Source: Candidatus Kaiserbacteria bacterium RIFCSPHIGHO2_02_FULL_49_34 (GTDB lineage Bacteria > Patescibacteriota > Minisyncoccia > Phycocordibacterales > UBA918). Taken from it: 64,000 bases of DNA. Positions 7,774-48,756 of this stretch are shown one piece after another (position 1 is the stretch's first letter; each line of letters starts with the position of its first letter). The notes beneath the pieces were generated by a model. The model did no database searches. It had not been told where the DNA came from and worked only from the letters and a program-made list of their open reading frames with translations. The position numbers and the translations under genes were made by a program. Location: positions 22,914 to 86,913 of the forward strand of contig MFLE01000025.1 of the NCBI GenBank assembly GCA_001781205.1. The letters run 5' to 3'.

Positions 7774-8238
7774 CTATATATTGAGGATTTTTGCTATAAA
7801 TTTCTGCCACCATGACTTTTCTTCAGGCAGTTCTAACTCATCCGGCACTATTTCCTCTTTTTTTGTTTCCGGTAAAATAACAAGTGACTCTCCTTTTTGT
7901 GCAACATCAAATGACTGACGAATATACTCCTCTTTCCCTGCGTCACTTTCTGCATACGCAACACGAGCCTTGAGGGTGTCATGACGATCACGTGCTGCAC
8001 GCACATCAATCGCGCGGTCTTCAGCGCGTGCATTCCATAGACGTTCTTTTTTCCACTGCGTAAAAATAATGCTGCTCGTATAGAGCGTTACAAGCACACA
8101 CACACCAAGCGTTATCGGCGAATGCACAAATCGCGACCAAGCAGAGGGAGTATGTATGCGCGGAGTTTTCATATGCACAGTATACCTGAATTCATAGCAT
8201 ACGGAAAATGAACGAGGCATACGCACCGAGTGCGCCAT
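7774..8238 (-). CDS. septum formation initiator (FtsB/DivIC/FtsL-like) protein
   Basis: Single TM helix ([18 protein letters not shown]) followed by a charged coiled-coil-like region. Lies between ftsI and prfA. Start ATG overlaps the ftsI stop (TAATG at 8236-8240). Alternative start at 8172. Confidence 0.5.
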
Positions 8239-9965
8239 TATTGCGATATCGTACTGGTTGCGAGGCCGACGTACTCGGGGCGATTCTCTACCATCCAATC
8301 AACAACACCTTTCATCACCCAACTGGCACCGACTTGGTTTTTGTAGGGACCGTTTTCCATAAAGAGAATGAAGGAATATTTTGGTTCTTCATAGGGGAAG
8401 TAACCCGCCACCCACGTGTGTACCTTCGTCTTTGCGCGGTCGAGTTCGGCAGTACCAGACTTCCCTGCTATAGCGACATCCTTTCGGTCAAGTCCACGCA
8501 CGGTGCCACCATCAGTTGCGACCGCCTCACGAAGCCCCTGCTGCACCACACGTAGATATTCAGGAGCAAGCCCGAGGTCAGTCGACTCTGCGGGGACATC
8601 TTTGTAAATTGTTGGTGTATACTTCGTGCCACCATTCGCAAGCGCAGCATACGCCACCAACATTTGTACTGGCGTTACCTGCCAGCCATACTGTCCGATT
8701 GAGGTGTTATATGTGTCGCCGAGTCGCCACTCATCATCAAACACTTCCTGTTTCCATGCAGGATTTGGAACCACACCTGCACGCTCACCGGAAAGCGAAA
8801 TACCTGTCGGTACACCAAAACCAAAGCGGTTCATCCACTCATGATACTTCGTAATGCCGAGACCTTTTTGGTCTTCGGTGCCACCCGCGACCGTGTAAAA
8901 ATACACGTCGCCCGACTGCGCAATAGCACGTATCATATTGAGCGAGCCATGCGCCTTCCAGTCGCGAAAGATAGTTGGGTTTTCAGGATTGTAGCGATTC
9001 GGCACGATGAGTTTACCATCAGAATACACGGTTGTTTCGGGCGTCACCACCTTTTCAGCAAGTGCGGCATACGCCACAAATGGCTTGACAATTGAGCCAG
9101 GAATATAGGTACCGGCAATGATTTTATCCATCAGCGGCGCACGTGTGTCGTTATGCAGTTCAGCAATCTTCTCACGATCAGTACCATCAGCAAAAATCTT
9201 TGGGTCATAGGAAGGGAACCCTGCGAGCGCAATAATTTCTCCAGTATGCACGTCCATAATCGCTGCGGCTCCTGAACGGAATCCCGTTTGTGCTGTTGTG
9301 GATGCAATGAGGTCATGCATAACTTCGGTCAGCTCTGCATCGAGCGACAAGGTTACCGAATTCCCAGGCTGTGCTGGCGCAATAGTATGTTGAGCTATGA
9401 CCGTGCCTTTTACGTCTTCCTCATAGAAGCGAGTGCCGTTCTCGCCTGCAAGAAATGCATTTGCGGACTCTTCCACGCCCGCGATACCCGTGTACTCCGT
9501 ACGGAAGAACACTCCTTTTGCATCCTTGCGTGGAGCATTTACATACCCAATGACCGGCCCCATTCCGCGACGCGACGTGTATGCACGCACGGGAAAATCA
9601 TGCTCGGCGGCAATGTCGGCATCATTCCACGCAAGTGCCTCCCCAAAACGGTCAACAATTACCCCTCGCTCCGCAATAATAGTCTCCCGCCCGAGCGAAT
9701 TATTCACGCTGCGCTGATAAAACGACTCACCTTCAATAATCTGGATGACAAAAAGTCGATATGCAAACCATATCGCAACACCAAGAAACACCACACCGAC
9801 ACCGACAAGCCGTGACGTCGAAATAGGCATTTCGCGCTTCCCTTCAAGCCTATCCGCATCAACACGCGCAATATTGAGCGCATCCACGAGCACTTCATCG
9901 AACGACACTTCGCGTCGCACCGATCCAAACCTCTTTTTAAGCCATCGCAACATTCCCCCGAGCAT
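8238..9965 (-). CDS. ftsI: penicillin-binding protein 2 / FtsI-type peptidoglycan D,D-transpeptidase
   Basis: 575 aa. N-terminal TM anchor. Transpeptidase motifs SIVKP (SxxK) and KSGTA (KTG). Confidence 0.9.
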   Translation of the reverse strand: MLGGMLRWLKKRFGSVRREVSFDEVLVDALNIARVDADRLEGKREMPISTSRLVGVGVVFLGVAIWFAYRLFVIQIIEGESFYQRSVNNSLGRETIIAERGVIVDRFGEALAWNDADIAAEHDFPVRAYTSRRGMGPVIGYVNAPRKDAKGVFFRTEYTGIAGVEESANAFLAGENGTRFYEEDVKGTVIAQHTIAPAQPGNSVTLSLDAELTEVMHDLIASTTAQTGFRSGAAAIMDVHTGEIIALAGFPSYDPKIFADGTDREKIAELHNDTRAPLMDKIIAGTYIPGSIVKPFVAYAALAEKVVTPETTVYSDGKLIVPNRYNPENPTIFRDWKAHGSLNMIRAIAQSGDVYFYTVAGGTEDQKGLGITKYHEWMNRFGFGVPTGISLSGERAGVVPNPAWKQEVFDDEWRLGDTYNTSIGQYGWQVTPVQMLVAYAALANGGTKYTPTIYKDVPAESTDLGLAPEYLRVVQQGLREAVATDGGTVRGLDRKDVAIAGKSGTAELDRAKTKVHTWVAGYFPYEEPKYSFILFMENGPYKNQVGASWVMKGVVDWMVENRPEYVGLATSTISQ

Positions 9966-10040
9966 AGCCTACCTCCACCTGAAATGCAAAAACACGTAGT
10001 ACGATATGACTCTGGATCCCGTCAGGATGAGGAGGTGAAT

Positions 10041-10182
10041 TGGTACGAAGTGCCAAGAGTGGCTGCCCTGGGGTACAAATTTTGAGTGTAATGCCTCAAA
10101 TTATTTGATGGTTAAAATCGATTTTTACCATCTCTTTCTTCAGAGTGTCATACCCTCATTTTGTCATCCTGACGGGATCCAG
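10041..10182. repeat. MITE-like palindromic element, type A (copy 1)
   Basis: Terminal inverted repeats CTGGATCCCGTCAGGATGA…/…TTTGTCATCCTGACGGGATCCAG flank a central palindrome GATGGTTAAAATCGATTTTTACCATC. An extra fragment of type C TIR (cccgaggatgaca) lies at ~10285-10299. Confidence 0.7.
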
Positions 10183-10349
10183 GCGTTAGAGAAGCAGCTT
10201 CTCAGCCTGAATCCCCGGGTCATTTGAAAATATAGTCGCTATGGTTCGAGAGACTCACCATAAATCGCTCCTTGTTTTCATGATGCCCGAGGATGACAAT
10301 TCTTTGAGATCTTTGCTACATAACAAAAAATCCCTTGCGGGATTATTTG

Positions 10350-12314
10350 TTACGCATTTAATGTTGCGTAGCGAGTTGAATCGATGGTGAGCCACCCATG
10401 TTCGGTTGGATACGTACCACGAGCCTTCGCAACAAGTGCGTCAAACATTGCTTTCTGAGCAAATGCAGTGTGTGCAGATGCCTGAATCGCTGCGATAACT
10501 TCGTCAGTGACAAAGATATGCTCTTGTGCGGCGTACTGTGCGAGCGAGAATACTGGCTCTTCTGCAACTGCGCCAAACATCTTTTCGAAGTTGTCGTCAG
10601 TTGGAAGATTTGCAACAGGCAATGCAACAGGTGTTGCAACTGCATGAGAGACATGCGCAACTGATGCTACGGGTGCTGCTGGCGTTTCTACTGCCGCTAC
10701 AAGCGAAGCACCATATTTACGCTGCATAACATAGTATGCAATACCAACTGCCCAAATACCAAGCAAGACATAGAAGAGTACCGTCATGGTCGGACCTGCA
10801 TCGAAACCAGTGTATGGTACGTTTGCAAGCGGCACACGATCAACTGAGATGTCTCCTGAAACGGTAGTGGTATCAACAGAAACTGAACAGGTATCAGAAC
10901 CATTGTTGTTCTGCACCTTCATGGTGTAGGTAACATTTTGGTTTGGAATCACGGTCTGACTGCCACTGTTTGGGCTGCGTGAGGTGTTTGTGTCGGCTGA
11001 AATGATAACGTTACCATACTGGTCACGAATCGTCATTTCTTTTGCGCGAGTGTTGTCCCACGTGAGGAGCACTGGCATACCACGCTTTACCACACGGTCA
11101 GAAACACGGAGGTCACAGATTGGTGCAGATCCTGAAGTTGTAGATTCTCGTTCTACCGTAATAGACTTTGTACACGTATCAACATCACCCTTTGCATTGT
11201 ATGCCTTCATTTTGAAGGTTGTTGAGGTGCGCGGGTAGACAGTGCGTGAACCTGAAGTGTCAGACGTTGAAACAATTGATTCACCGTTGTCATCAGTTAT
11301 CACGACACGTGTTGCATTACTGGTATTCCAAGTAAGCTTCACGCTGTCGCCACGAGTGATTGAGGAATCCGAAATCGTGAGGTGACATACTGGCGCTGAG
11401 ACTGCAGTCTCGGTTACCGTAATTGACTTAGTACACGTATCAACAGCACCTGCTGCGTTATATGCCTTCATAGTGAAGGTTGTTGATGTGCGTGGGTAGA
11501 TTTCGCGTGAACTTGAAACATCAGTCGTTGAAACAATTGTTTCTCCGTTGCCGTCAGTAATGACAACACGTGTTGCGTTTGCACCACCCCATGAAAGGGT
11601 TACTGCATCGCCACGAGTGATTGAGGTATCTGAAAGTGAAAGACTACATACGGGAGCAGGATAGGTTGGAGGAGTCGGCGTTGTTGGTGGAACGTACGTT
11701 GGCGGCTCATAATACCAATCATTGCCGTAATCCCAGTCGTACGTATACGTTACAGGAGCATACGAGTAGCCAGTATTCCAAGAAACTGGTTCGTAAGAAT
11801 ATGACGGAGATTCGTATGACCAGTCGTTCGAACCATAATCATACTCATAATTCCAGTCAGTTGAGCCGTAATCGTAGCTATAATCCCAGCCAGTAGACCC
11901 ATAGTCGTAGGTTGTATTGTAGTCAGTTGAGCCGTAATCGTAGGTTGTATTATATCCCGTTGATCCATAATCATACGTGGTATTGTATCCAGTTGATCCG
12001 TAATCATACGTAGTGTTATAGCCAGTTGAACCATAATCATAGGTCGTGTTGTAACCCGTTGATCCATAATCGTACGTGGTATTGTATCCAGTAGACCCAT
12101 AGTCATACGTGTTGTTATAGCCCGTAGAACCATAATCATAGCTTGTATTGTACCCGGTTGAACCATAGCCGTAGCCATAATCATACCCTGTTGATCCATA
12201 GTCATAGCTATAGTTCCAGTCCCATGCATCCGCACGAACGACACCCGGAAGTGCGAGTGAGACAGTGAGAAGCGCAATAGCAATTCCCGAAGTGATTTTT
12301 GAAATGATGTTCAT
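10350..12314 (-). CDS. large repeat-containing surface protein (signal peptide, Tyr-rich 11-mer repeats, 3 Ig-like repeats, TM anchor, cytoplasmic tail)
   Basis: Start at MNIISKITSGIAIALLTVSLALPGVVRA (cleavable signal peptide). About 12 tandem YDYGSTGYNTT repeats. Pro/Thr linker PPTYVPPTTPTPPTYPAPV. Three ~90-aa homologous modules, each with a Cys pair (C..LS.SD..I.RGD.V.L.W....A...I.D..G..IVS..D.S.SR..YPRTSTTF.MKAYNA.G.VDTCTKSITV). Then TM helix VLFYVLLGIWAVGIAYYVM and a ~130-aa tail. Confidence 0.7.
   Translation of the reverse strand: MNIISKITSGIAIALLTVSLALPGVVRADAWDWNYSYDYGSTGYDYGYGYGSTGYNTSYDYGSTGYNNTYDYGSTGYNTTYDYGSTGYNTTYDYGSTGYNTTYDYGSTGYNTTYDYGSTGYNTTYDYGSTDYNTTYDYGSTGWDYSYDYGSTDWNYEYDYGSNDWSYESPSYSYEPVSWNTGYSYAPVTYTYDWDYGNDWYYEPPTYVPPTTPTPPTYPAPVCSLSLSDTSITRGDAVTLSWGGANATRVVITDGNGETIVSTTDVSSSREIYPRTSTTFTMKAYNAAGAVDTCTKSITVTETAVSAPVCHLTISDSSITRGDSVKLTWNTSNATRVVITDDNGESIVSTSDTSGSRTVYPRTSTTFKMKAYNAKGDVDTCTKSITVERESTTSGSAPICDLRVSDRVVKRGMPVLLTWDNTRAKEMTIRDQYGNVIISADTNTSRSPNSGSQTVIPNQNVTYTMKVQNNNGSDTCSVSVDTTTVSGDISVDRVPLANVPYTGFDAGPTMTVLFYVLLGIWAVGIAYYVMQRKYGASLVAAVETPAAPVASVAHVSHAVATPVALPVANLPTDDNFEKMFGAVAEEPVFSLAQYAAQEHIFVTDEVIAAIQASAHTAFAQKAMFDALVAKARGTYPTEHGWLTIDSTRYATLNA
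11790..12225 (-). repeat. tandem 33-nt coding repeats (YDYGSTGYNTT x ~12) within the surface protein gene
   Basis: Near-identical 33-nt units visible in the nucleotide sequence (…gtagacccatagtcatacgtg(g/t)t(a/g)ttgta…). They encode the Tyr/Gly/Thr-rich 11-mer. Confidence 0.8.
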
Positions 12315-12432
12315 ATATTTTTTTATGTGAGACAATGTCTCATTCTGCCGACAAGCATAATACAGGGACGAATCATTCAAAGAGAATGATTCGTCCATGG
12401 GATATGCATCCCGAAATGTGTATGAAAGGAAC

Positions 12433-12939
12433 TTAACTTTTTTTCTCCGACACCATGAGAATAGCGCGCCCCGGAACCGGAGAACCGATCCGCATGGAGA
12501 CAGCCGCACCGCCCGAAGGCTTCACGGTGATGTTGAGCGGATATTCGCCGACAACATCGCCAGGCACCATTTCAATGGCTTCGCCACCGATAAGATGCAG
12601 GCTTTTGGTTGCCGTGCGACCGGCCGAGGTGACAATCGTCAGCTCGACACGCTCGCTATCACACCACTTCCCTGCAGCCATGGTTTTCTGGACCCAGGCT
12701 TTGAAGCTGGGGTCCTGCATGGGCATCGGTGGCTTGACGGTAACGCAGTGCATCACCAGCGTCATCGGCGGTGCCGCGGGACGTTGTTGTTGCTGTTGCT
12801 GTACCATTTCGACTTGTTGCGGCCCCATGACACCAGTTTGCTGCGATTGCGACCGTTGGGGCGCAGTCGACGAGCAGCCACTGCATGCGGCGAGCAGAAC
12901 GGGGATGGAAGCAATGCAAGCGATTTTTGCGATATTCAT
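12433..12939 (-). CDS. lipoprotein, Gln-rich
   Basis: Signal peptide plus lipobox MNIAKIACIASIPVLLAACSG (LLAAC). Poly-Gln stretch. Sits between the L,D-transpeptidase and surface-protein genes on the same strand. Confidence 0.55.
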   Translation of the reverse strand: MNIAKIACIASIPVLLAACSGCSSTAPQRSQSQQTGVMGPQQVEMVQQQQQQRPAAPPMTLVMHCVTVKPPMPMQDPSFKAWVQKTMAAGKWCDSERVELTIVTSAGRTATKSLHLIGGEAIEMVPGDVVGEYPLNITVKPSGGAAVSMRIGSPVPGRAILMVSEKKS

Positions 12940-12968
12940 GATGAATCTCCAGTGTATGAATGAGAGGA

Positions 12969-13358
12969 TTACTGAACGATAACCGTGTCGCTAAGTTCGG
13001 CAAAGCGAAATGCGAAGAGTGCGTCTTCTGGACTCAGCCGGATACAACCCGCTGATGCAGGATTCCCCGTCGGCCTCCCCAGATGAAGCGCATGGCCTCG
13101 ACTGGTGAAGAAAAGAGAGAAAAGCATCGGCGTACCGTATTCGGATGAAATATGGTGGCGCTTTTTTTTGAGGATCCTGAACACCCCTTTCGGCGTGTCA
13201 TGTCCTTCTCTGCCCGTCGAGACGATACCCGAATGGACACGTTGCTTACCCTCATAGAGAGTAAACGTTTGCGCAGCAAGGTCAATCACAATCGATCGCT
13301 CTGCCGCACTCACGCCACCCGCCAAAAGCAGGAAGCAGAACAGCAGAACAATTTTCAT
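12969..13358 (-). CDS. L,D-transpeptidase (YkuD domain) with signal peptide
   Basis: Catalytic signature H...ASAGCIRL (conserved His and SxGC[IV]R Cys) of L,D-transpeptidases. N-terminal signal peptide MKIVLLFCFLLLAGGVSAA. Confidence 0.8.
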   Translation of the reverse strand: MKIVLLFCFLLLAGGVSAAERSIVIDLAAQTFTLYEGKQRVHSGIVSTGREGHDTPKGVFRILKKKRHHISSEYGTPMLFSLFFTSRGHALHLGRPTGNPASAGCIRLSPEDALFAFRFAELSDTVIVQ

Positions 13359-13491
13359 GCAAGACCTCCGAAGAAGAAAGTTGTCAAAGAATGTTTTTTA
13401 GGGGGAACGAACTTGCCACATTATAAACACATTTCACAAGATTGTCAAGGGTTTCCCCCTCGAAATGCCCGAAAAACCAAAGGTGGAGGCA

Positions 13492-13520
13492 TTGACAAAA
13501 ACATATATAAACCGTATAAA
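13492..13520 (+). promoter_or_regulatory. sigma70-type promoter candidate upstream of gmd (TTGACA-17 nt-TATAAA)
   Basis: Perfect -35 TTGACA, a 17-nt spacer, then TATAAA ~70 nt upstream of the gmd ATG. AGGA RBS precedes the ATG. Confidence 0.5.
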
Positions 13521-13590
13521 TCTATCTAGAGCTCTCATTTCTTTTCATGAGTCACGAGAGATGTCCTGTTCATTTACAAAGGAATATATC

Positions 13591-14625
13591 ATGTCGAAGA
13601 TTGCACTCATTACCGGCATCACCGGTCAAGATGGTTCGTACCTTGCTGAGCTTTTGCTCGAGAAGGGCTACGAGGTCCACGGCATCATTCGCCGCACCAG
13701 CACCGAAGCGGGCAAGTGGCGCATTGCGCACCTTATCGAAAAGAAGGCTATTCATCTGCATTATGGTGATGTGTCCGACAGCCTCAGTGTCTACCGTATC
13801 GTTGCCGAGCTCCAGCCCGATGAGATTTACAATCTCGCGGCACAGAGCCACGTTCGCGATTCGTTCGACATGCCGCAGTACACCCTCTCGGTTGACGGCG
13901 GCGGCGCGCTGCATGTGCTCGAAGCGGTTCGCCTCGCAGGCCTCGCCAAGAAAACGCGCGTCTACCAAGCGTCGACGAGCGAAATTTTTGGCGAAGCACC
14001 TGCTCCGCAAAGCGAAACGACACCCTTCTGGCCTCGCAGCCCCTATGGCTGTGCAAAAGTCTATGCACATTACCTCTCACGGAACTACCGCGAGGCGTAC
14101 GGCATGTTCGTTTGCTCAGGCTTTCTCTTCAACCACGAAAGTGAGCGGCGCGGTGAACTTTTTGTGACCCGCACCATCACGCGTCACGCCGCACGCATCG
14201 CACTCGGTATCGACGACCCAATCCCCTTCAGCAACCCTTCCTCGCGTCGCGACTGGGGCCATGCGAAGGATTTCGTGGTCGCCATGTGGCTCATGCTGCA
14301 GCAAGAAACTCCCGACGACTTTGTTATCGCCACTGGCGAACAGCACAGCAATCGCGAGTTTACCGAACGAGTCTTTGCACTCCTCGGGATTCCTGTGGAG
14401 TGGCGTGATGTGGGTAAAGATGAAATTTGCATTCACGCCAATACCGGCGCGATTGTCGGCTACATCGAACCCTCACTCTACCGTCCGACGGATGTCACCA
14501 ACCTGCACGGCGACGCTACGAAAGCGCGCACCCTGCTCGGCTGGACGCCACACGTCACGTTCGATGAACTCGTTCGCGAAATGACATTCGCTGATCTCGA
14601 ACGTACCAAGAACGGCATCATCTAA
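13591..14625 (+). CDS. gmd: GDP-mannose 4,6-dehydratase
   Basis: MSKIALITGITGQDGSYLAELLLEKGYEVHGIIRR is nearly identical to the Gmd consensus N-terminus. Full-length SDR. Confidence 0.95.
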   Translation: MSKIALITGITGQDGSYLAELLLEKGYEVHGIIRRTSTEAGKWRIAHLIEKKAIHLHYGDVSDSLSVYRIVAELQPDEIYNLAAQSHVRDSFDMPQYTLSVDGGGALHVLEAVRLAGLAKKTRVYQASTSEIFGEAPAPQSETTPFWPRSPYGCAKVYAHYLSRNYREAYGMFVCSGFLFNHESERRGELFVTRTITRHAARIALGIDDPIPFSNPSSRRDWGHAKDFVVAMWLMLQQETPDDFVIATGEQHSNREFTERVFALLGIPVEWRDVGKDEICIHANTGAIVGYIEPSLYRPTDVTNLHGDATKARTLLGWTPHVTFDELVREMTFADLERTKNGII

Positions 14626-14674
14626 ACTGGACGGCGAGGTTCGCCTCGCCGCACTCTTTTCTAAGGAGTAATTC

Positions 14675-15619
14675 ATGAACAAAAATGCAAAGATTTTTGT
14701 CGCTGGGCACAACGGCCTCGTCGGCAGCGCCATCGTGCGCGAACTCGAAAGGCAAGGCTACACCGACATCTGCACAGCAACGCGCGACGAGCTCGACCTC
14801 ACGGACACCCATGAGGTCCTGAAATATTTTGCTACACAGAAACCAACTCACGTCTTTCTCGCCGCAGCAAAAGTTGGCGGCATTACTGCCAACAACACCT
14901 TCCCTGCTGACTTCATTCTGGACAACCTGCGGATTCAGACGAACGTCATCGATGCGAGTCGCTGGTTCGAGGTTGAAAAACTCCTCTTCCTCGGCTCGTC
15001 CTGCATCTATCCGAAGCTCTGCCCACAACCCATCAAGGAAGAATACCTGATGACGGGGCCGCTTGAGCCGACAAACGATGCCTATGCGATAGCAAAAATC
15101 GCCGGCATCAAAATGTGCGATGCCTACCGTGCGCAGTATGGATGTAATTTCATTTCTGCGATGCCTACCAATATCTATGGCAGAGGAGACAACTTCCATC
15201 CGACAAACAGCCATGCGATTCCGCAAATCATGCGCAAATTGCACGAAGCGAAAATCGCTGATGCCTTTGAAGTCCGCGGATTCGCCGACGGTTCTCCGCT
15301 GCGTGAATTTCTCTACGTCGACGACCTCGCGCGCGCGTGCTTGCATCTCATGCAGCACTACGATGAGCCCGGGCCGATTAACGTTGGTACCGGTATTGAC
15401 TACACCATGCGCGAAACCATCATGCTCATTGCGCAGATTGTCGACTACAAGGGAAACATCATCTTCGATGGCAATATCCCGAACGGCACTCCACGCAAGG
15501 TCCTCGACGTCTCCCGCATCCACGCCCTCGGCTGGCACCACGAAGAAATGCTCGAAGAAGGCCTCCGCAAAACCTACGACTGGTTCTGCAAAACCCCCGA
15601 CGCAAGCAAGCGCATGTAA
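14675..15619 (+). CDS. fcl: GDP-L-fucose synthase (GDP-4-keto-6-deoxymannose 3,5-epimerase/4-reductase)
   Basis: KIFVAGHNGLVGSAIVRELERQGY...FLAAAKVGGITANNTFPADFI...LFLGSSCIYPK...PTN..YAIAKIAGIKMC matches E. coli Fcl/WcaG along its length. Confidence 0.95.
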   Translation: MNKNAKIFVAGHNGLVGSAIVRELERQGYTDICTATRDELDLTDTHEVLKYFATQKPTHVFLAAAKVGGITANNTFPADFILDNLRIQTNVIDASRWFEVEKLLFLGSSCIYPKLCPQPIKEEYLMTGPLEPTNDAYAIAKIAGIKMCDAYRAQYGCNFISAMPTNIYGRGDNFHPTNSHAIPQIMRKLHEAKIADAFEVRGFADGSPLREFLYVDDLARACLHLMQHYDEPGPINVGTGIDYTMRETIMLIAQIVDYKGNIIFDGNIPNGTPRKVLDVSRIHALGWHHEEMLEEGLRKTYDWFCKTPDASKRM

Positions 15620-46391: not shown

Positions 46392-46530
46392 TTTTGTCAT
46401 CCTGGAAGGATCCAGAGCGTATTACCCATCACTTGATTTCTCATAAACTTTACTTCCAAGCACTACGTTGCCCAATATCCAAATCTCAAGTACCTAGTTT
46501 CGACTCTGGATCCTTCCAGGATGACAAAAG
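46392..46530. repeat. MITE-like palindromic element, type B
   Basis: TIRs TTTTGTCATCCTGGAAGGATCCAGAG / CTCTGGATCCTTCCAGGATGACAAAAG, 26 bp each, ~87 bp apart. Variant of the type A TIR. Preceded by a separate 20-bp-stem perfect hairpin at 46295-46346 just after the wbaP-like stop. Confidence 0.7.
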
Positions 46531-48628: not shown

Positions 48629-48756
48629 ACTCCTGGATCCCGTCAGGATGACAAATGTTGGGTGCAGTGTTTAAATGAATTAGAAGTTAAAATCGATTTT
48701 AACCATCTACTAATTTTGAGCATCGCCCCTCATTTTGTCATCCTGACGGGATCCAT
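48629..48756. repeat. MITE-like palindromic element, type A (copy 2)
   Basis: ACTCCTGGATCCCGTCAGGATGACAAATG… / …CCCCTCATTTTGTCATCCTGACGGGATCCATG with central GTTAAAATCGATTTTAACC palindrome. Lies between ligA and the methyltransferase gene. Confidence 0.75.

What the first reader, a model, noticed from the sequence alone, without database searches (positions are those of the whole stretch)
10350..13358. Cell-envelope operon: L,D-transpeptidase – lipoprotein – 654-aa surface protein with three repeat tiers
The surface protein (10350..12314) has a signal peptide, ~12 tandem YDYGSTGYNTT repeats (Tyr-rich, amyloid/adhesin-like composition) and a Pro/Thr linker. It continues with three ~90-aa Ig-like modules, each with a conserved Cys pair; two carry RGD. 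It ends with a TM helix and an unusually long (~130-aa) cytoplasmic tail rather than a short sortase-type stop-transfer. The tail is Ala/Val-rich and ends in an acidic-aromatic segment. The architecture suggests a transmembrane adhesin or receptor with outside-in coupling. The 33-nt DNA repeats (11790-12225) make the gene prone to length variation.
Basis: seen in the sequence. Interest (0 to 1): 0.5.

Follow-up and report, generated by a model that had tools for sequence, protein, structure and literature searches.

The report
Sortase-signal surface protein with cytoplasmic domain
This gene from an uncultured groundwater bacterium (Candidatus Kaiserbacteria) encodes a real, widely conserved surface protein whose "membrane anchor" is a wall-attachment (sortase) signal followed, unusually, by a small folded domain inside the cell, which suggests that one precursor yields both a wall-bound adhesin and a leftover membrane protein.

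Summary
Window 10350..12314 (-) encodes a 654-aa protein (NCBI hypothetical A3C87_03080, Candidatus Kaiserbacteria). It has a signal peptide, 11 tandem YDYGSTGYNTT-type units, three Cys-pair Ig-like modules, one TM helix and a 123-aa tail. An independent assembly reproduces the gene 100%.

Just before the TM helix lies VPYTGFDAGP, an LPXTG-type sortase motif that is invariant across the family. In 49 of 52 related loci with enough flank, a dedicated, unclassified sortase lies directly upstream, in a conserved gyrB–sortase–gene–thrS–dnaE neighbourhood.

The tail ends in a conserved 67-aa domain (479 cluster representatives, always behind this anchor). It is confidently predicted to have the fold of an AAA+ "lid" subdomain, but there is no ATPase.

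Best reading: a sortase substrate whose sorting signal carries a folded cytoplasmic module, so cleavage would leave a 152-aa membrane remnant.

In the window's clade the gene sits outside the canonical locus. It follows a minimal YkuD L,D-transpeptidase and a lipoprotein, with a conserved promoter and a conserved 5'-UTR hairpin. A class F-like sortase lies about 60 kb away on the same contig.

RGD and "amyloid" are not supported. No Pfam/NCBIfam model or open-access paper covers the family.

The parts
13420..13448 (-). Sigma-70-type promoter-like site TTGACA-17-TATAAT upstream of the YkuD gene
   Evidence: 12 of 12 consensus matches. The same element precedes YkuD in L006.
12969..13358 (-). 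Minimal secreted YkuD L,D-transpeptidase (129 aa): signal peptide plus catalytic domain only
   Evidence: Pfam PF03734 E 3.7e-18, 67 bits. The active-site stretch HLGRPTGNPASAGCIRL can be read in the sequence. Orthologues at 57-79% identity hold the same position in L001, L006 and L086.
12433..12939 (-). 168-aa lipoprotein (lipobox LLAAC, Gln-rich linker, two conserved Cys); family confined to this clade
   Evidence: Sequence. An HMM of this protein hits only the window, L001/L002 and L006 among 86 loci. No Pfam or NCBIfam hit.
12366..12396 (-). 13-bp stem hairpin in the 118-nt leader of the adhesin gene, followed by an invariant block and a second small hairpin
   Evidence: the leader folds at -38.1 kcal/mol, z -5.0. 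The stem is conserved in L001 and L006, with three pairs changed on both sides in L006.
10350..12314 (-). Whole coding sequence of the 654-aa surface protein (stop codon 10350-10352)
   Evidence: An independent assembly is 100% identical.
12228..12314 (-). Sec-type signal peptide, residues 1-29 (…GVVRA|DA)
   Evidence: Hydropathy and sequence. Conserved in P0002 and P0003.
11811..12206 (-). Tandem 11-aa Tyr-rich units (YDYGSTGYNTT type), the core of an acidic low-complexity tip with no basic residues (residues 30-218)
   Evidence: The tip is low-complexity but differs in sequence among relatives. Unit number differs from P0002.
11409..11660 (-). Ig-like module 1 (residues 219-302; Cys223/Cys294; RGD 234)
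   Evidence: Module HMM E 2.9e-28. 78% DNA match to module 2 at period 261.
11148..11399 (-). Ig-like module 2 (residues 306-389; Cys310/Cys381; RGD 321)
   Evidence: AF2 pLDDT 96.9, eight-strand beta sandwich. Foldseek TM 0.72-0.80 to SoxYZ, CbhA Fn3-like and PKD domains.
10863..11129 (-). Ig-like module 3 (residues 396-484; Cys400/Cys476), the membrane-proximal subtype with an insertion, conserved across the family
10791..10820 (-). Sorting motif VPYTGFDAGP (residues 499-508), an LPXTG-type signal; predicted sortase cut between T502 and G503
   Evidence: Present in 28 of 31 first-round homologues; the other three lack the motif, two of them being short sequences that end before this region. 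Of 118 tail-bearing proteins, 115 have P[YFW]TG and 3 have IPHTGF or LPQTGF. No non-synonymous change in this clade despite 13-16 synonymous changes nearby. Weak NCBIfam matches to LPXTG/QVPTGV anchor models.
10722..10790 (-). Conserved TM helix (residues 509-531; invariant F, Y, W, Y positions), followed by QRK
10599..10610 (-). Short linear motif NLPT (residues 569-572) in the Ala/Pro/Val-rich cytoplasmic linker
   Evidence: [ND]LP[TVIA] is present in the linker of 101 of 126 family members.
10353..10553 (-). 67-aa folded cytoplasmic domain (residues 588-654) with an AAA+ lid / SSD-like fold; invariant YP.E.GW patch
10329..10344 (-). Intrinsic-terminator-like hairpin plus T-run immediately after the stop codon
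   Evidence: sequence.

Best explanation
The gene encodes a member of a large, unannotated family of surface proteins of Paceibacteria/Parcubacteria (CPR).

**Architecture (shown).** From N- to C-terminus:
- a Sec signal peptide;
- an acidic, low-complexity distal tip without basic residues (here the Tyr-rich 11-aa units);
- 1-17 Ig-like modules, each with a Cys at its first and last strand;
- an invariant LPXTG-type motif, [VIL]P(Y)TGF(D/E)AGP;
- a conserved TM helix and basic residues;
- a linker carrying an NLP(T/V) motif;
- a 67-aa cytoplasmic domain with an AAA+ lid-like fold.

**Mechanism (inferred).**
1. The precursor is exported by Sec and arrested in the membrane by the TM helix and the folded cytoplasmic domain.
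2. A sortase cuts between T502 and G503.
3. The ectodomain is joined to peptidoglycan, with the sticky tip pointing outward on a stalk of disulfide-stapled modules.
4. The 152-aa remnant (G503-A654) stays in the membrane. Its cytoplasmic domain is a protein-docking module, either positioning or retaining the precursor for its sortase, or reporting or using the remnant after cleavage.

**Genomic setting.** In most genomes the cognate sortase is encoded directly upstream. In the window's clade the gene lies outside that locus. It appears to be co-transcribed with a minimal YkuD L,D-transpeptidase and a lipoprotein, which most simply remodel or cross-link the wall where the protein is inserted.
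For: **Family and motif.**

**Classic signals in relatives.** Some relatives end right after motif, TM helix and a basic tail, which is the classic tripartite signal: L005 9804-10880, P0022 and L066.

**Sortase linkage.**
- A sortase lies upstream on the same strand within 5 kb in 49 of 52 loci with at least 5 kb of flank. The median gap is 846 bp and the gap is often 12-250 bp.
- These sortases form one orthogroup with intact His/Cys/Arg. They match Pfam Sortase at E 1e-20 but stay below every NCBIfam class cutoff.
- The neighbourhood is a conserved core-genome one in 34-36 of 37 full loci.

**Motif under selection.** The motif is under purifying selection in the window's clade.

**Sortase in this genome.** A class F-like sortase lies about 9.5 kb past the window's end on the same contig.

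**Ectodomain.** The modules have an Ig-like fold. Sortases and extracytoplasmic disulfide machinery are common in CPR (PMC6744442).

**Precedent for a remnant being sensed.** Described for S. gordonii, as summarised in PMC11326707.

**Operon.** Promoter, terminator and conserved triple.
Against: - No cleavage or wall linkage has been shown for any member.
- The window's locus has no adjacent sortase, and there is none in the 64-kb window. The only sortase seen in this genome is class F-like and is not the orthogroup linked to this family (12 bits).
- The defining 'short charged C-terminal tail' of sortase signals is not met.
- NCBIfam anchor models score far below their cutoffs.
- The function of the tail is a guess.
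Confidence: 0.6

Rival explanations
1. Uncleaved type I membrane adhesin or receptor. The protein stays whole. The VPYTGF block is only a conserved juxtamembrane segment. The cytoplasmic lid-like domain couples binding at the surface to a partner inside the cell.
For: - The TM helix and tail are more conserved than the ectodomain, and the tail is a folded domain.
- The window's clade has no adjacent sortase.
- The tail breaks the short-charged-tail rule of sortase signals.
Against: - The motif is LPXTG-type, with variants LPQTGF and IPHTGF.
- It is followed at the canonical distance by a TM helix and basic residues.
- Some relatives end there, as classic signals do.
- A dedicated sortase is adjacent in 49 of 52 loci.
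Confidence: 0.22
2. In this clade the YkuD L,D-transpeptidase has taken over the sortase's role. It would attach the adhesin or the lipoprotein to peptidoglycan, as ErfK/YbiS/YcfS attach Braun's lipoprotein in E. coli.
For: - YkuD plus a lipoprotein occupy exactly the slot that sortase (often plus a small secreted or lipoprotein gene) holds in relatives.
- The triple moves as a unit between different flanks.
- The YkuD active-site motif is intact.
- JGI labels distant relatives 'lipoprotein-anchoring transpeptidase'.
Against: - The sortase motif is still under purifying selection, and a sortase exists in the genome.
- The lipoprotein's C-terminus is not conserved (…EKKS against …AFSSL), unlike the C-terminal Lys of Lpp.
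- The slot between sortase and adhesin holds unrelated small genes in other genomes, so adjacency alone is weak evidence.
- Ordinary 3-3 cross-linking is the default role of YkuD.
Confidence: 0.07
3. Fibre or pilus-like subunit. The dedicated adjacent sortase polymerises the multi-Ig protein head-to-tail, as class C sortases do with pilins, rather than only anchoring it to the wall.
For: A one-sortase/one-substrate gene pair and tandem Ig-like modules stabilised by internal covalent bonds resemble pilin clusters. A tandem paralogue with a classic signal is present in L005.
Against: - No pilin-motif Lys region was recognised.
- The low-complexity tip lacks Lys entirely.
- The sortase is nearest classes D/E rather than C, and is below all class cutoffs.
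- There is a single copy per locus in most genomes.
Confidence: 0.05
4. Assembly or annotation artefact in the repeat region.
For: Repeats can collapse in short-read assemblies. Gene callers disagree on the start: 654, 682 or 719 aa.
Against: - An independent assembly is identical over 2049 nt.
- The units are diverged at synonymous sites, and the longest exact repeated word is 23 nt.
- Orthologues have intact ORFs.
Confidence: 0.02

Closest known systems
LPXTG cell-wall sorting signals and their sortases (e.g. S. aureus protein A / SrtA; classes A-F)
   Same: - N-terminal signal peptide.
- A pentapeptide [VIL]PxTG, followed by a hydrophobic helix and basic residues.
- A sortase-domain gene with His/Cys/Arg next to the substrate gene in relatives.
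   Different: - Tyr at the X position, and an extended invariant block TGF(D/E)AGP.
- The sortase falls below every NCBIfam class cutoff.
- The signal is not C-terminal. It is followed by a 50-100-aa linker and one or two folded cytoplasmic domains.
- In the window's clade no sortase is adjacent.
Sensing of the sortase remnant peptide by the S. gordonii SGO_1180 two-component system (as summarised in PMC11326707)
   Same: The C-terminal piece left in the membrane after sortase cleavage has a function of its own, reporting that adhesins have been processed.
   Different: There the remnant is a bare TM peptide sensed by a separate kinase. Here the remnant would itself carry a conserved folded cytoplasmic domain. 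No partner is known and no experiment exists.
AAA+ lid (alpha-helical / SSD) subdomain of Hda, DnaA domain III, RuvB, clamp-loader gamma/delta and Lon; and stand-alone lid-like N-terminal domains of the B subunits of DNA polymerases alpha, epsilon and D
   Different: - No significant match by sequence or by Foldseek.
- No P-loop domain.
- Tethered to the membrane behind a sorting signal.
Multi-Ig-domain wall-anchored adhesins of Gram-positive bacteria (MSCRAMM, Rib/Big/PKD/Fn3-like stalks)
   Same: Tandem Ig-like beta-sandwich modules form a stalk between a wall anchor and a distal binding region. Covalent stapling of the modules is inferred.
   Different: - The modules match no Pfam family above cutoff.
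- Stapling would be by a Cys pair rather than by isopeptide bonds.
- The distal part is a low-complexity acidic/aromatic tract, not a folded ligand-binding domain.
YkuD L,D-transpeptidases (E. coli ErfK/YbiS/YcfS; B. subtilis YkuD)
   Same: A catalytic domain with the His…SxGC(I/V)R motif, and secreted.
   Different: It is only 129 aa and has no LysM or PG-binding domain. It is encoded in a conserved triple with a lipoprotein and a gene for a protein bearing a sortase signal.

Membership tests
Sortase substrate (LPXTG-type cell-wall sorting signal) | N-terminal secretion signal | tested here: met
   Hydrophobic h-region at residues 7-25 and a VRA|D site. Judged by hydropathy and inspection, not by a dedicated predictor.
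Sortase substrate (LPXTG-type cell-wall sorting signal) | LPXTG-like pentapeptide | tested here: met
   VPYTG at residues 499-503. The family consensus is [VIL]P[YHQ]TG.
Sortase substrate (LPXTG-type cell-wall sorting signal) | Hydrophobic segment directly after the motif, then basic residues | tested here: met
   TM helix at 509-531, then QRK.
Sortase substrate (LPXTG-type cell-wall sorting signal) | The signal lies at the extreme C-terminus (short charged tail) | tested here: not met
   120 further residues follow QRK, including a folded domain. The feature is met in the relatives L005 358 aa, P0022 and L066.
Sortase substrate (LPXTG-type cell-wall sorting signal) | Match to curated anchor models | tested here: not met
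   NF033073 scores 15.8 bits against a cutoff of 48. TIGR03065 scores 13.5 against 21.35.
Sortase substrate (LPXTG-type cell-wall sorting signal) | Cognate sortase encoded in the genome | tested here: inconclusive
   There is none in the 64-kb window. A class F-like sortase lies about 9.5 kb beyond it on the same contig, but it is not the family-linked orthogroup. A sortase is adjacent in 49 of 52 related loci.
Sortase substrate (LPXTG-type cell-wall sorting signal) | Cleavage after Thr and amide linkage to peptidoglycan | not testable with these tools
   Needs biochemistry or proteomics.
AAA+ ATPase lid subdomain | Lid fold (small helical bundle with a beta hairpin) | tested here: met
   [not shown]
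AAA+ ATPase lid subdomain | Fused C-terminally to a P-loop alpha/beta ATPase domain | tested here: not met
   The domain follows a TM helix and a low-complexity linker. There is no ATPase domain in the protein.
AAA+ ATPase lid subdomain | Detectable sequence homology | tested here: not met
   A profile searched against PDB sequences gave a best E of 0.72, to unrelated proteins. No Pfam or NCBIfam hit.
YkuD L,D-transpeptidase (gene 12969..13358) | YkuD catalytic domain above the curated cutoff, with the His / SxGC(I/V)R active site | tested here: met
   PF03734 scores 67 bits against 23.4. HLGRPTGNPASAGCIRL is in the sequence.
Bacterial lipoprotein (gene 12433..12939) | Signal peptide ending in a lipobox [LVI][ASTVI][GAS]C | tested here: met
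   MNIAKIACIASIPVLLAAC|SG. The orthologues have LTAC|SG and LGAC|SG. Judged by inspection only.
Ig-like / Fn3 / PKD-type beta-sandwich domains | Seven- to eight-strand beta sandwich | tested here: met
   AF2 pLDDT 96.9 with eight strands. Foldseek probability 1.0 and TM 0.72-0.80 to SoxY/Z, CbhA Fn3-like and PKD domains.
Ig-like / Fn3 / PKD-type beta-sandwich domains | Membership of a described sequence family | tested here: not met
   The only hit is Ig_NUP210_15th at 14.6 bits against a cutoff of 27.
Integrin-type RGD adhesin / functional amyloid | RGD on an exposed, specifically conserved loop; amyloid-forming repeat family (e.g. curli) | tested here: not met
   At this turn RGD alternates with EGD, RGE and SGE across family modules: 14, 13, 5 and 4 of 82. 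No curli or amyloid family hit. The tip sequence is not conserved among relatives.

The most novel reading that the evidence does not exclude
The sorting signal is a two-product device. Sortase cleavage yields a wall-linked adhesin and, in equal amount, a membrane-tethered 152-aa remnant. The remnant's conserved AAA+ lid-like domain, together with the NLP(T/V) motif, docks onto a cytoplasmic partner, so that surface display is reported to, or coupled with, an intracellular process. The canonical locus lies between gyrB and dnaE, and the best structural matches are replication-factor lids. In the window's clade this module has been uncoupled from its sortase gene and re-wired to an L,D-transpeptidase and a lipoprotein.
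Probability: 0.2. Interest if true: 0.8.

Novelty: new variant of a known kind. Interest (0 to 1): 0.6.

Why it matters
How CPR/Patescibacteria build their envelope and attach to hosts is largely unknown, because almost none are cultured. This family is a conserved, apparently single-copy gene pair (dedicated sortase plus substrate) at a fixed core-genome position in many Paceibacteria. No domain library names it.

It offers several things:
- A concrete sortase motif (VPYTGF[DE]AGP) that can be tested directly with peptides.
- The first example I could find of a sortase-type signal followed by conserved folded cytoplasmic domains. This challenges the rule that such signals end in a few charged residues, and it suggests that the 'waste' fragment has a function.
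- A natural experiment in the window's clade, where the adjacent transpeptidase is a YkuD enzyme instead of a sortase.

For annotation, the anchor and tail domains would make useful new family models.

Tried and rejected
**Searches that gave nothing useful.**
- The exact-sequence look-up of the 654-aa product failed, because the collection calls the gene from an upstream ATG as 682 aa.
- Pfam and NCBIfam scans of the adhesin and its longer relatives gave nothing above cutoff.
- The tail profile searched against PDB sequences gave nothing.
- Foldseek of the tail against PDB gave nothing significant. The afdb50 library was unavailable.
- I tried to learn whether the window's genome has the family-type sortase by searching with a sortase alignment. 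That returned 2245 hits, with only the top 120 listed and none attributable to this genome.
- Literature searches for a PYTG sortase motif and for sortases in Parcubacteria/Patescibacteria gave only general statements.

**Ideas considered and dropped.**
- A TLxTC motif scan and a sortase HMM found no sortase in the window.
- One hop beyond the window's right end found a class F-like sortase, not the linked type.
- Horizontal origin of YkuD and the lipoprotein judged by GC content: inconclusive.
- The lipoprotein as a family shared with the genes lying between sortase and adhesin in other genomes: rejected, since those genes are unrelated small secreted proteins.
- RGD as an integrin-type motif: rejected.
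- An amyloid or curli-like reading: no support.
- The internal hairpin as a simple terminator that splits the operon: not adopted, because it lacks a T-run and is followed by invariant sequence.


Full report
**1. The observation**

The minus-strand ORF 10350..12314 translates to 654 aa. It is 100% identical to 'hypothetical protein A3C87_03080' of a Candidatus Kaiserbacteria MAG from Rifle groundwater. The stated features are all present:
- a hydrophobic signal peptide, residues 1-29;
- eleven YDYGS-initiated 11-aa units, one of them doubled (residues 37-168; DNA 11811-12206);
- a Pro/Thr linker;
- three ~87-aa modules, each with a Cys near its start and end (223/294, 310/381, 400/476);
- RGD at 234 and 321;
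- one TM helix, about residues 507-531;
- a 123-aa tail with 23% Ala and 10% Val.

The ATG at 12314 is the correct start. Close homologues begin MNIISK. L006 has a stop nine codons upstream and a 5-nt indel in the leader. Some gene callers use an upstream ATG inside a hairpin and obtain 682 aa.

The repeat tract is not an assembly artefact. An independent JGI assembly (L091) is identical over all 2049 nt compared. Units that encode the identical peptide share only 73-88% of their DNA, and the longest exact repeated word is 23 nt. The array is therefore old and kept by selection on the peptide. It is only moderately prone to slippage.

**2.

Immediately before the TM helix lies V-P-Y-T-G-F-D-A-G-P (residues 499-508).
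- The block [VIL]PYTG[FL] is present in 28 of the 31 homologues first retrieved. The other three lack the motif, and two of them are short sequences that end before this region.
- It is followed by a TM helix with invariant F, Y, W and Y positions, and then by basic residues.
- Among 118 further family members with enough upstream sequence, 115 have P[YFW]TG. The other three read IPHTGF or LPQTGF, which is plain LPXTG.
- Some relatives stop right after motif, TM helix and a basic tail: …VPYTGFDARDTLLYTFYGAVLAWVGAMGYFMRRRKYSRISSKV* in L005, plus P0022 and L066. That is the textbook tripartite sortase signal.
- NCBIfam anchor models match only weakly.

**3. Genomic evidence for a dedicated sortase**

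A scan of one genome per GTDB species with the pattern PYTGF[DE]AGP found 165 relatives. Nearly all are titled as Patescibacteria/Paceibacteria-type MAGs.

I built a sortase HMM from two neighbouring genes and searched the 86 loci held.
- Of the 52 loci with at least 5 kb of upstream flank, 49 have a sortase gene upstream on the same strand within 5 kb. The median gap is 846 bp and the gap is often 12-250 bp.
- These sortases form one tight orthogroup with intact His (LGHSS), Cys (TLATC) and Arg (DDR).
- They match Pfam Sortase at E 1e-20 to 1e-18 but reach no NCBIfam class cutoff. The nearest classes are D and E.

The pair sits in a conserved core-genome neighbourhood: pheT, gyrB, a divergently transcribed 335-354-aa membrane protein, the sortase, the gene, then thrS, dnaE and rnhB. 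Each of gyrB, the membrane-protein gene, thrS, dnaE and rnhB is found in 34-36 of the 37 loci with full flanks, and pheT in 29. In 37 loci a small secreted protein or lipoprotein gene lies between sortase and substrate. These intervening genes are not one family.

**4. The tail**

Behind the TM helix comes a variable Ala/Pro/Val-rich linker. It holds a short conserved motif, [ND]LP[TVIA], in 101 of 126 members; in the window it is NLPT at residues 569-572. The motif is often followed by (V/I)GY.

The last 67 residues form a conserved domain (alignment A1).
- An exhaustive HMMER search of 1.84 billion representatives found 479 proteins at E<=1e-3 and 332 at E<=1e-10.
- In every hit with more than 200 aa upstream, the domain lies 72-151 aa behind the anchor motif, and the protein also carries 1-17 copies of the Cys-pair module.
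- Conversely, 83 of 86 anchor-bearing ORFs in the loci carry the domain. 51 of them have a further C-terminal helical domain that the window's protein lacks.
- AlphaFold2 predicts a helix-strand-helix-helix-strand-helix fold with pLDDT 95.7.
- Foldseek gives no significant hit, though its weak top hits are again AAA+ small domains. A sequence profile against PDB finds nothing.

The domain therefore resembles an AAA+ lid in fold but has no ATPase core. It is not a demonstrable homologue. In other stand-alone cases this fold serves as a protein-docking module.

**5. The ectodomain**

Module 2 is predicted as an eight-strand beta sandwich with pLDDT 96.9. Foldseek matches it to SoxY/Z, CbhA Fn3-like, PKD and Ig domains with TM 0.72-0.80. 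No Pfam family reaches its cutoff.

The two nearly invariant Cys lie on the first and last strands. I infer a disulfide that staples each module. This is plausible because CPR commonly encode extracytoplasmic disulfide machinery (PMC6744442).

RGD lies in the turn before the '…VTLxW' strand. At that position family modules read RGD (14), EGD (13), RGE (5) and SGE (4) out of 82. It is a structural consensus, not an integrin-type motif.

The N-terminal tip is low-complexity in all relatives but differs in sequence: W/S/D/G repeats in P0003, DSSVGGD in P0020, poly-Tyr/Asp in P0026. It is typically acidic, G/S/T/N-rich and almost free of basic residues. I found no support for an amyloid. A generic 'sticky', fast-evolving distal tip is the most that can be said.

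Length variation among close relatives is real:
- P0002 has three fewer 11-aa units than the window's protein.
- P0004 lacks five residues in the tract.
- P0011 has a precise in-frame loss of one Ig module.

**6. The 'operon'**

YkuD (129 aa: signal peptide plus catalytic domain, with an intact His…SAGCIR site) and a 168-aa lipobox protein precede the gene.

Evidence for one transcription unit:
- A 12/12 TTGACA-17-TATAAT site lies upstream of YkuD, and a hairpin plus T-run follows the adhesin's stop codon.
- The triple recurs in L001/L002 (adhesin 70% identical, YkuD 57%, lipoprotein 32%), in L006 and in L086-L088.
- The outer flanks differ. A CsoR-CopA-DsbD_2 copper cluster is adjacent there, but lies 48 kb away in the window's genome, where gmd/fcl and PBP2 flank the triple.
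- The promoter and the 118-nt leader are conserved. The 13-bp leader hairpin keeps pairing through three double changes in L006, and the leader folds at z -5.0.

Co-transcription is therefore likely. The hairpin is more probably a regulatory or stabilising element than a terminator.

None of the canonical neighbours (gyrB, thrS, dnaE) is present in the 64-kb window. The window's gene is thus a relocated copy or a paralogue. In this clade YkuD and the lipoprotein occupy the slot that the sortase holds elsewhere. The motif is nevertheless under purifying selection in the clade: 13-16 synonymous against 5-6 non-synonymous codon differences in 48 codons, and none in VPYTGFDAGP.

One hop beyond the window's right end, on the same contig (99.99% identical overlap), reveals a sortase gene about 9.5 kb further on. 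It is class F-like (123 bits on a 149-aa fragment) and is not the family-linked orthogroup (12 bits). The organism therefore has sortase chemistry. Whether it also has the cognate enzyme could not be determined.

**7. Mechanism**

*Shown:* the architecture, its conservation, the sortase linkage in relatives, the predicted folds, and the conserved three-gene unit.

*Inferred:*
- Sec export;
- arrest in the membrane by the TM helix and the cytoplasmic domain;
- sortase cleavage between T502 and G503, and linkage of the ectodomain to peptidoglycan;
- a 152-aa remnant left in the membrane.

The tail's strong conservation, greater than that of the ectodomain, argues that it does something. It could position or retain the precursor for its sortase. 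Or it could act after cleavage, in the way S. gordonii senses the bare remnant peptide of its adhesins (PMC11326707).

*Rivals:*
- YkuD replacing the sortase in anchoring (0.07);
- a sortase-polymerised fibre (0.05);
- an artefact (0.02).

**8. Novelty**

No Pfam or NCBIfam model covers the modules, the anchor or the tail. The only paper in the searchable library that contains both 'PYTG' and 'sortase' is unrelated. Papers on CPR mention sortases only in general terms.

I rate this a new variant of a known kind: a sortase-signal protein with a variant motif and appended cytoplasmic domains. The caveat is that subscription literature could not be searched.

Noticed in passing
window 10012-10182, 48633-48756, 60486-60611, and a diverged copy at 46397-46524: A MITE-like palindromic repeat family. 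Perfect 19-nt terminal inverted repeats (CTGGATCCCGTCAGGATGA / TCATCCTGACGGGATCCAG) enclose 70-133 nt with a central palindrome GGTTAAAATCGATTTTAACC. There are 8 arm matches against 0.01 expected. One copy sits in the intergenic region between the adhesin gene and PBP2.
   Followed up: partly
window 12315-12432 (-): The 118-nt leader of the adhesin gene is strongly structured (-38.1 kcal/mol, z -5.0). It has a 13-bp hairpin with three compensatory pair changes in L006, then an invariant CCTGTATTATGCYTGTCGGCAGA block, and a second hairpin GAGACAttGTCTC about 20 nt before the ATG. It may be a regulatory or mRNA-stabilising element. There is no Rfam hit at gathering threshold.
   Followed up: partly
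L066 10425-10445; L060 4120-4135; P0022: In three relatives the reading frame breaks at an A9-A10 run just after the TM helix or in the linker, and the lid-like tail continues in the next frame. This is either a homopolymer sequencing error or a slippage site that would switch between a classic short-tail signal and the long-tail form. The window's gene has no such tract.
   Followed up: partly
L090 21745-22196 (about 9.5 kb beyond the window's right end, same contig): A class F-like sortase gene (NF033748, 123 bits on the 149 aa visible) in the same genome. It is unrelated to the sortase orthogroup linked to this protein family. Its substrates are unknown.
   Followed up: partly
L003 5198-6262 (-), L005 4612-5619 (-), and 34 of 37 full loci: A conserved 335-354-aa membrane protein is transcribed divergently from the family-linked sortase. 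It has an N-terminal TM helix and weak NPCBM_assoc/DUF1573-like beta-sandwich matches. It may be a further partner of the system.
   Followed up: no
P0013, P0014, P0018, P0023, P0025, P0029; 51 of 83 tail-bearing ORFs in the loci: Most family members carry a second conserved C-terminal helical domain of about 110 aa (…LAEAIVxGD…RPMxALADA…LDAxYRxR…LTSALDGTYxDE…AVKMAIMKA…) after the lid-like domain. It has no Pfam or NCBIfam match and is absent from the window's protein.
   Followed up: no
P0011 and P0004 compared with P0002 (relatives about 76% identical to the window's protein): P0011 has a precise in-frame deletion of one whole Ig module, with the junction inside the conserved …KGK/VDTC… segment. 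P0004 has a 5-residue indel in the Tyr-rich tract. These are evidence of recombination between repeats in natural populations or in assemblies.
   Followed up: partly
window 60.7-64 kb; L001 21-3461; L086 6261-9859: A CsoR-CopA (P-type ATPase)-DsbD_2-cupredoxin copper cluster lies directly beside the YkuD-lipoprotein-adhesin triple in relatives, but 48 kb away in the window's genome. This shows that a rearrangement moved the triple as a unit.
   Followed up: no
window 8238-9965 (-) and 13465-15619 (+): The triple is flanked by a PBP2-type transpeptidase gene and by GDP-mannose 4,6-dehydratase plus a second NAD-dependent epimerase/reductase-like gene. This is a local concentration of envelope genes. 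The gmd/fcl identities come from reading the sequence and were not tested.
   Followed up: no
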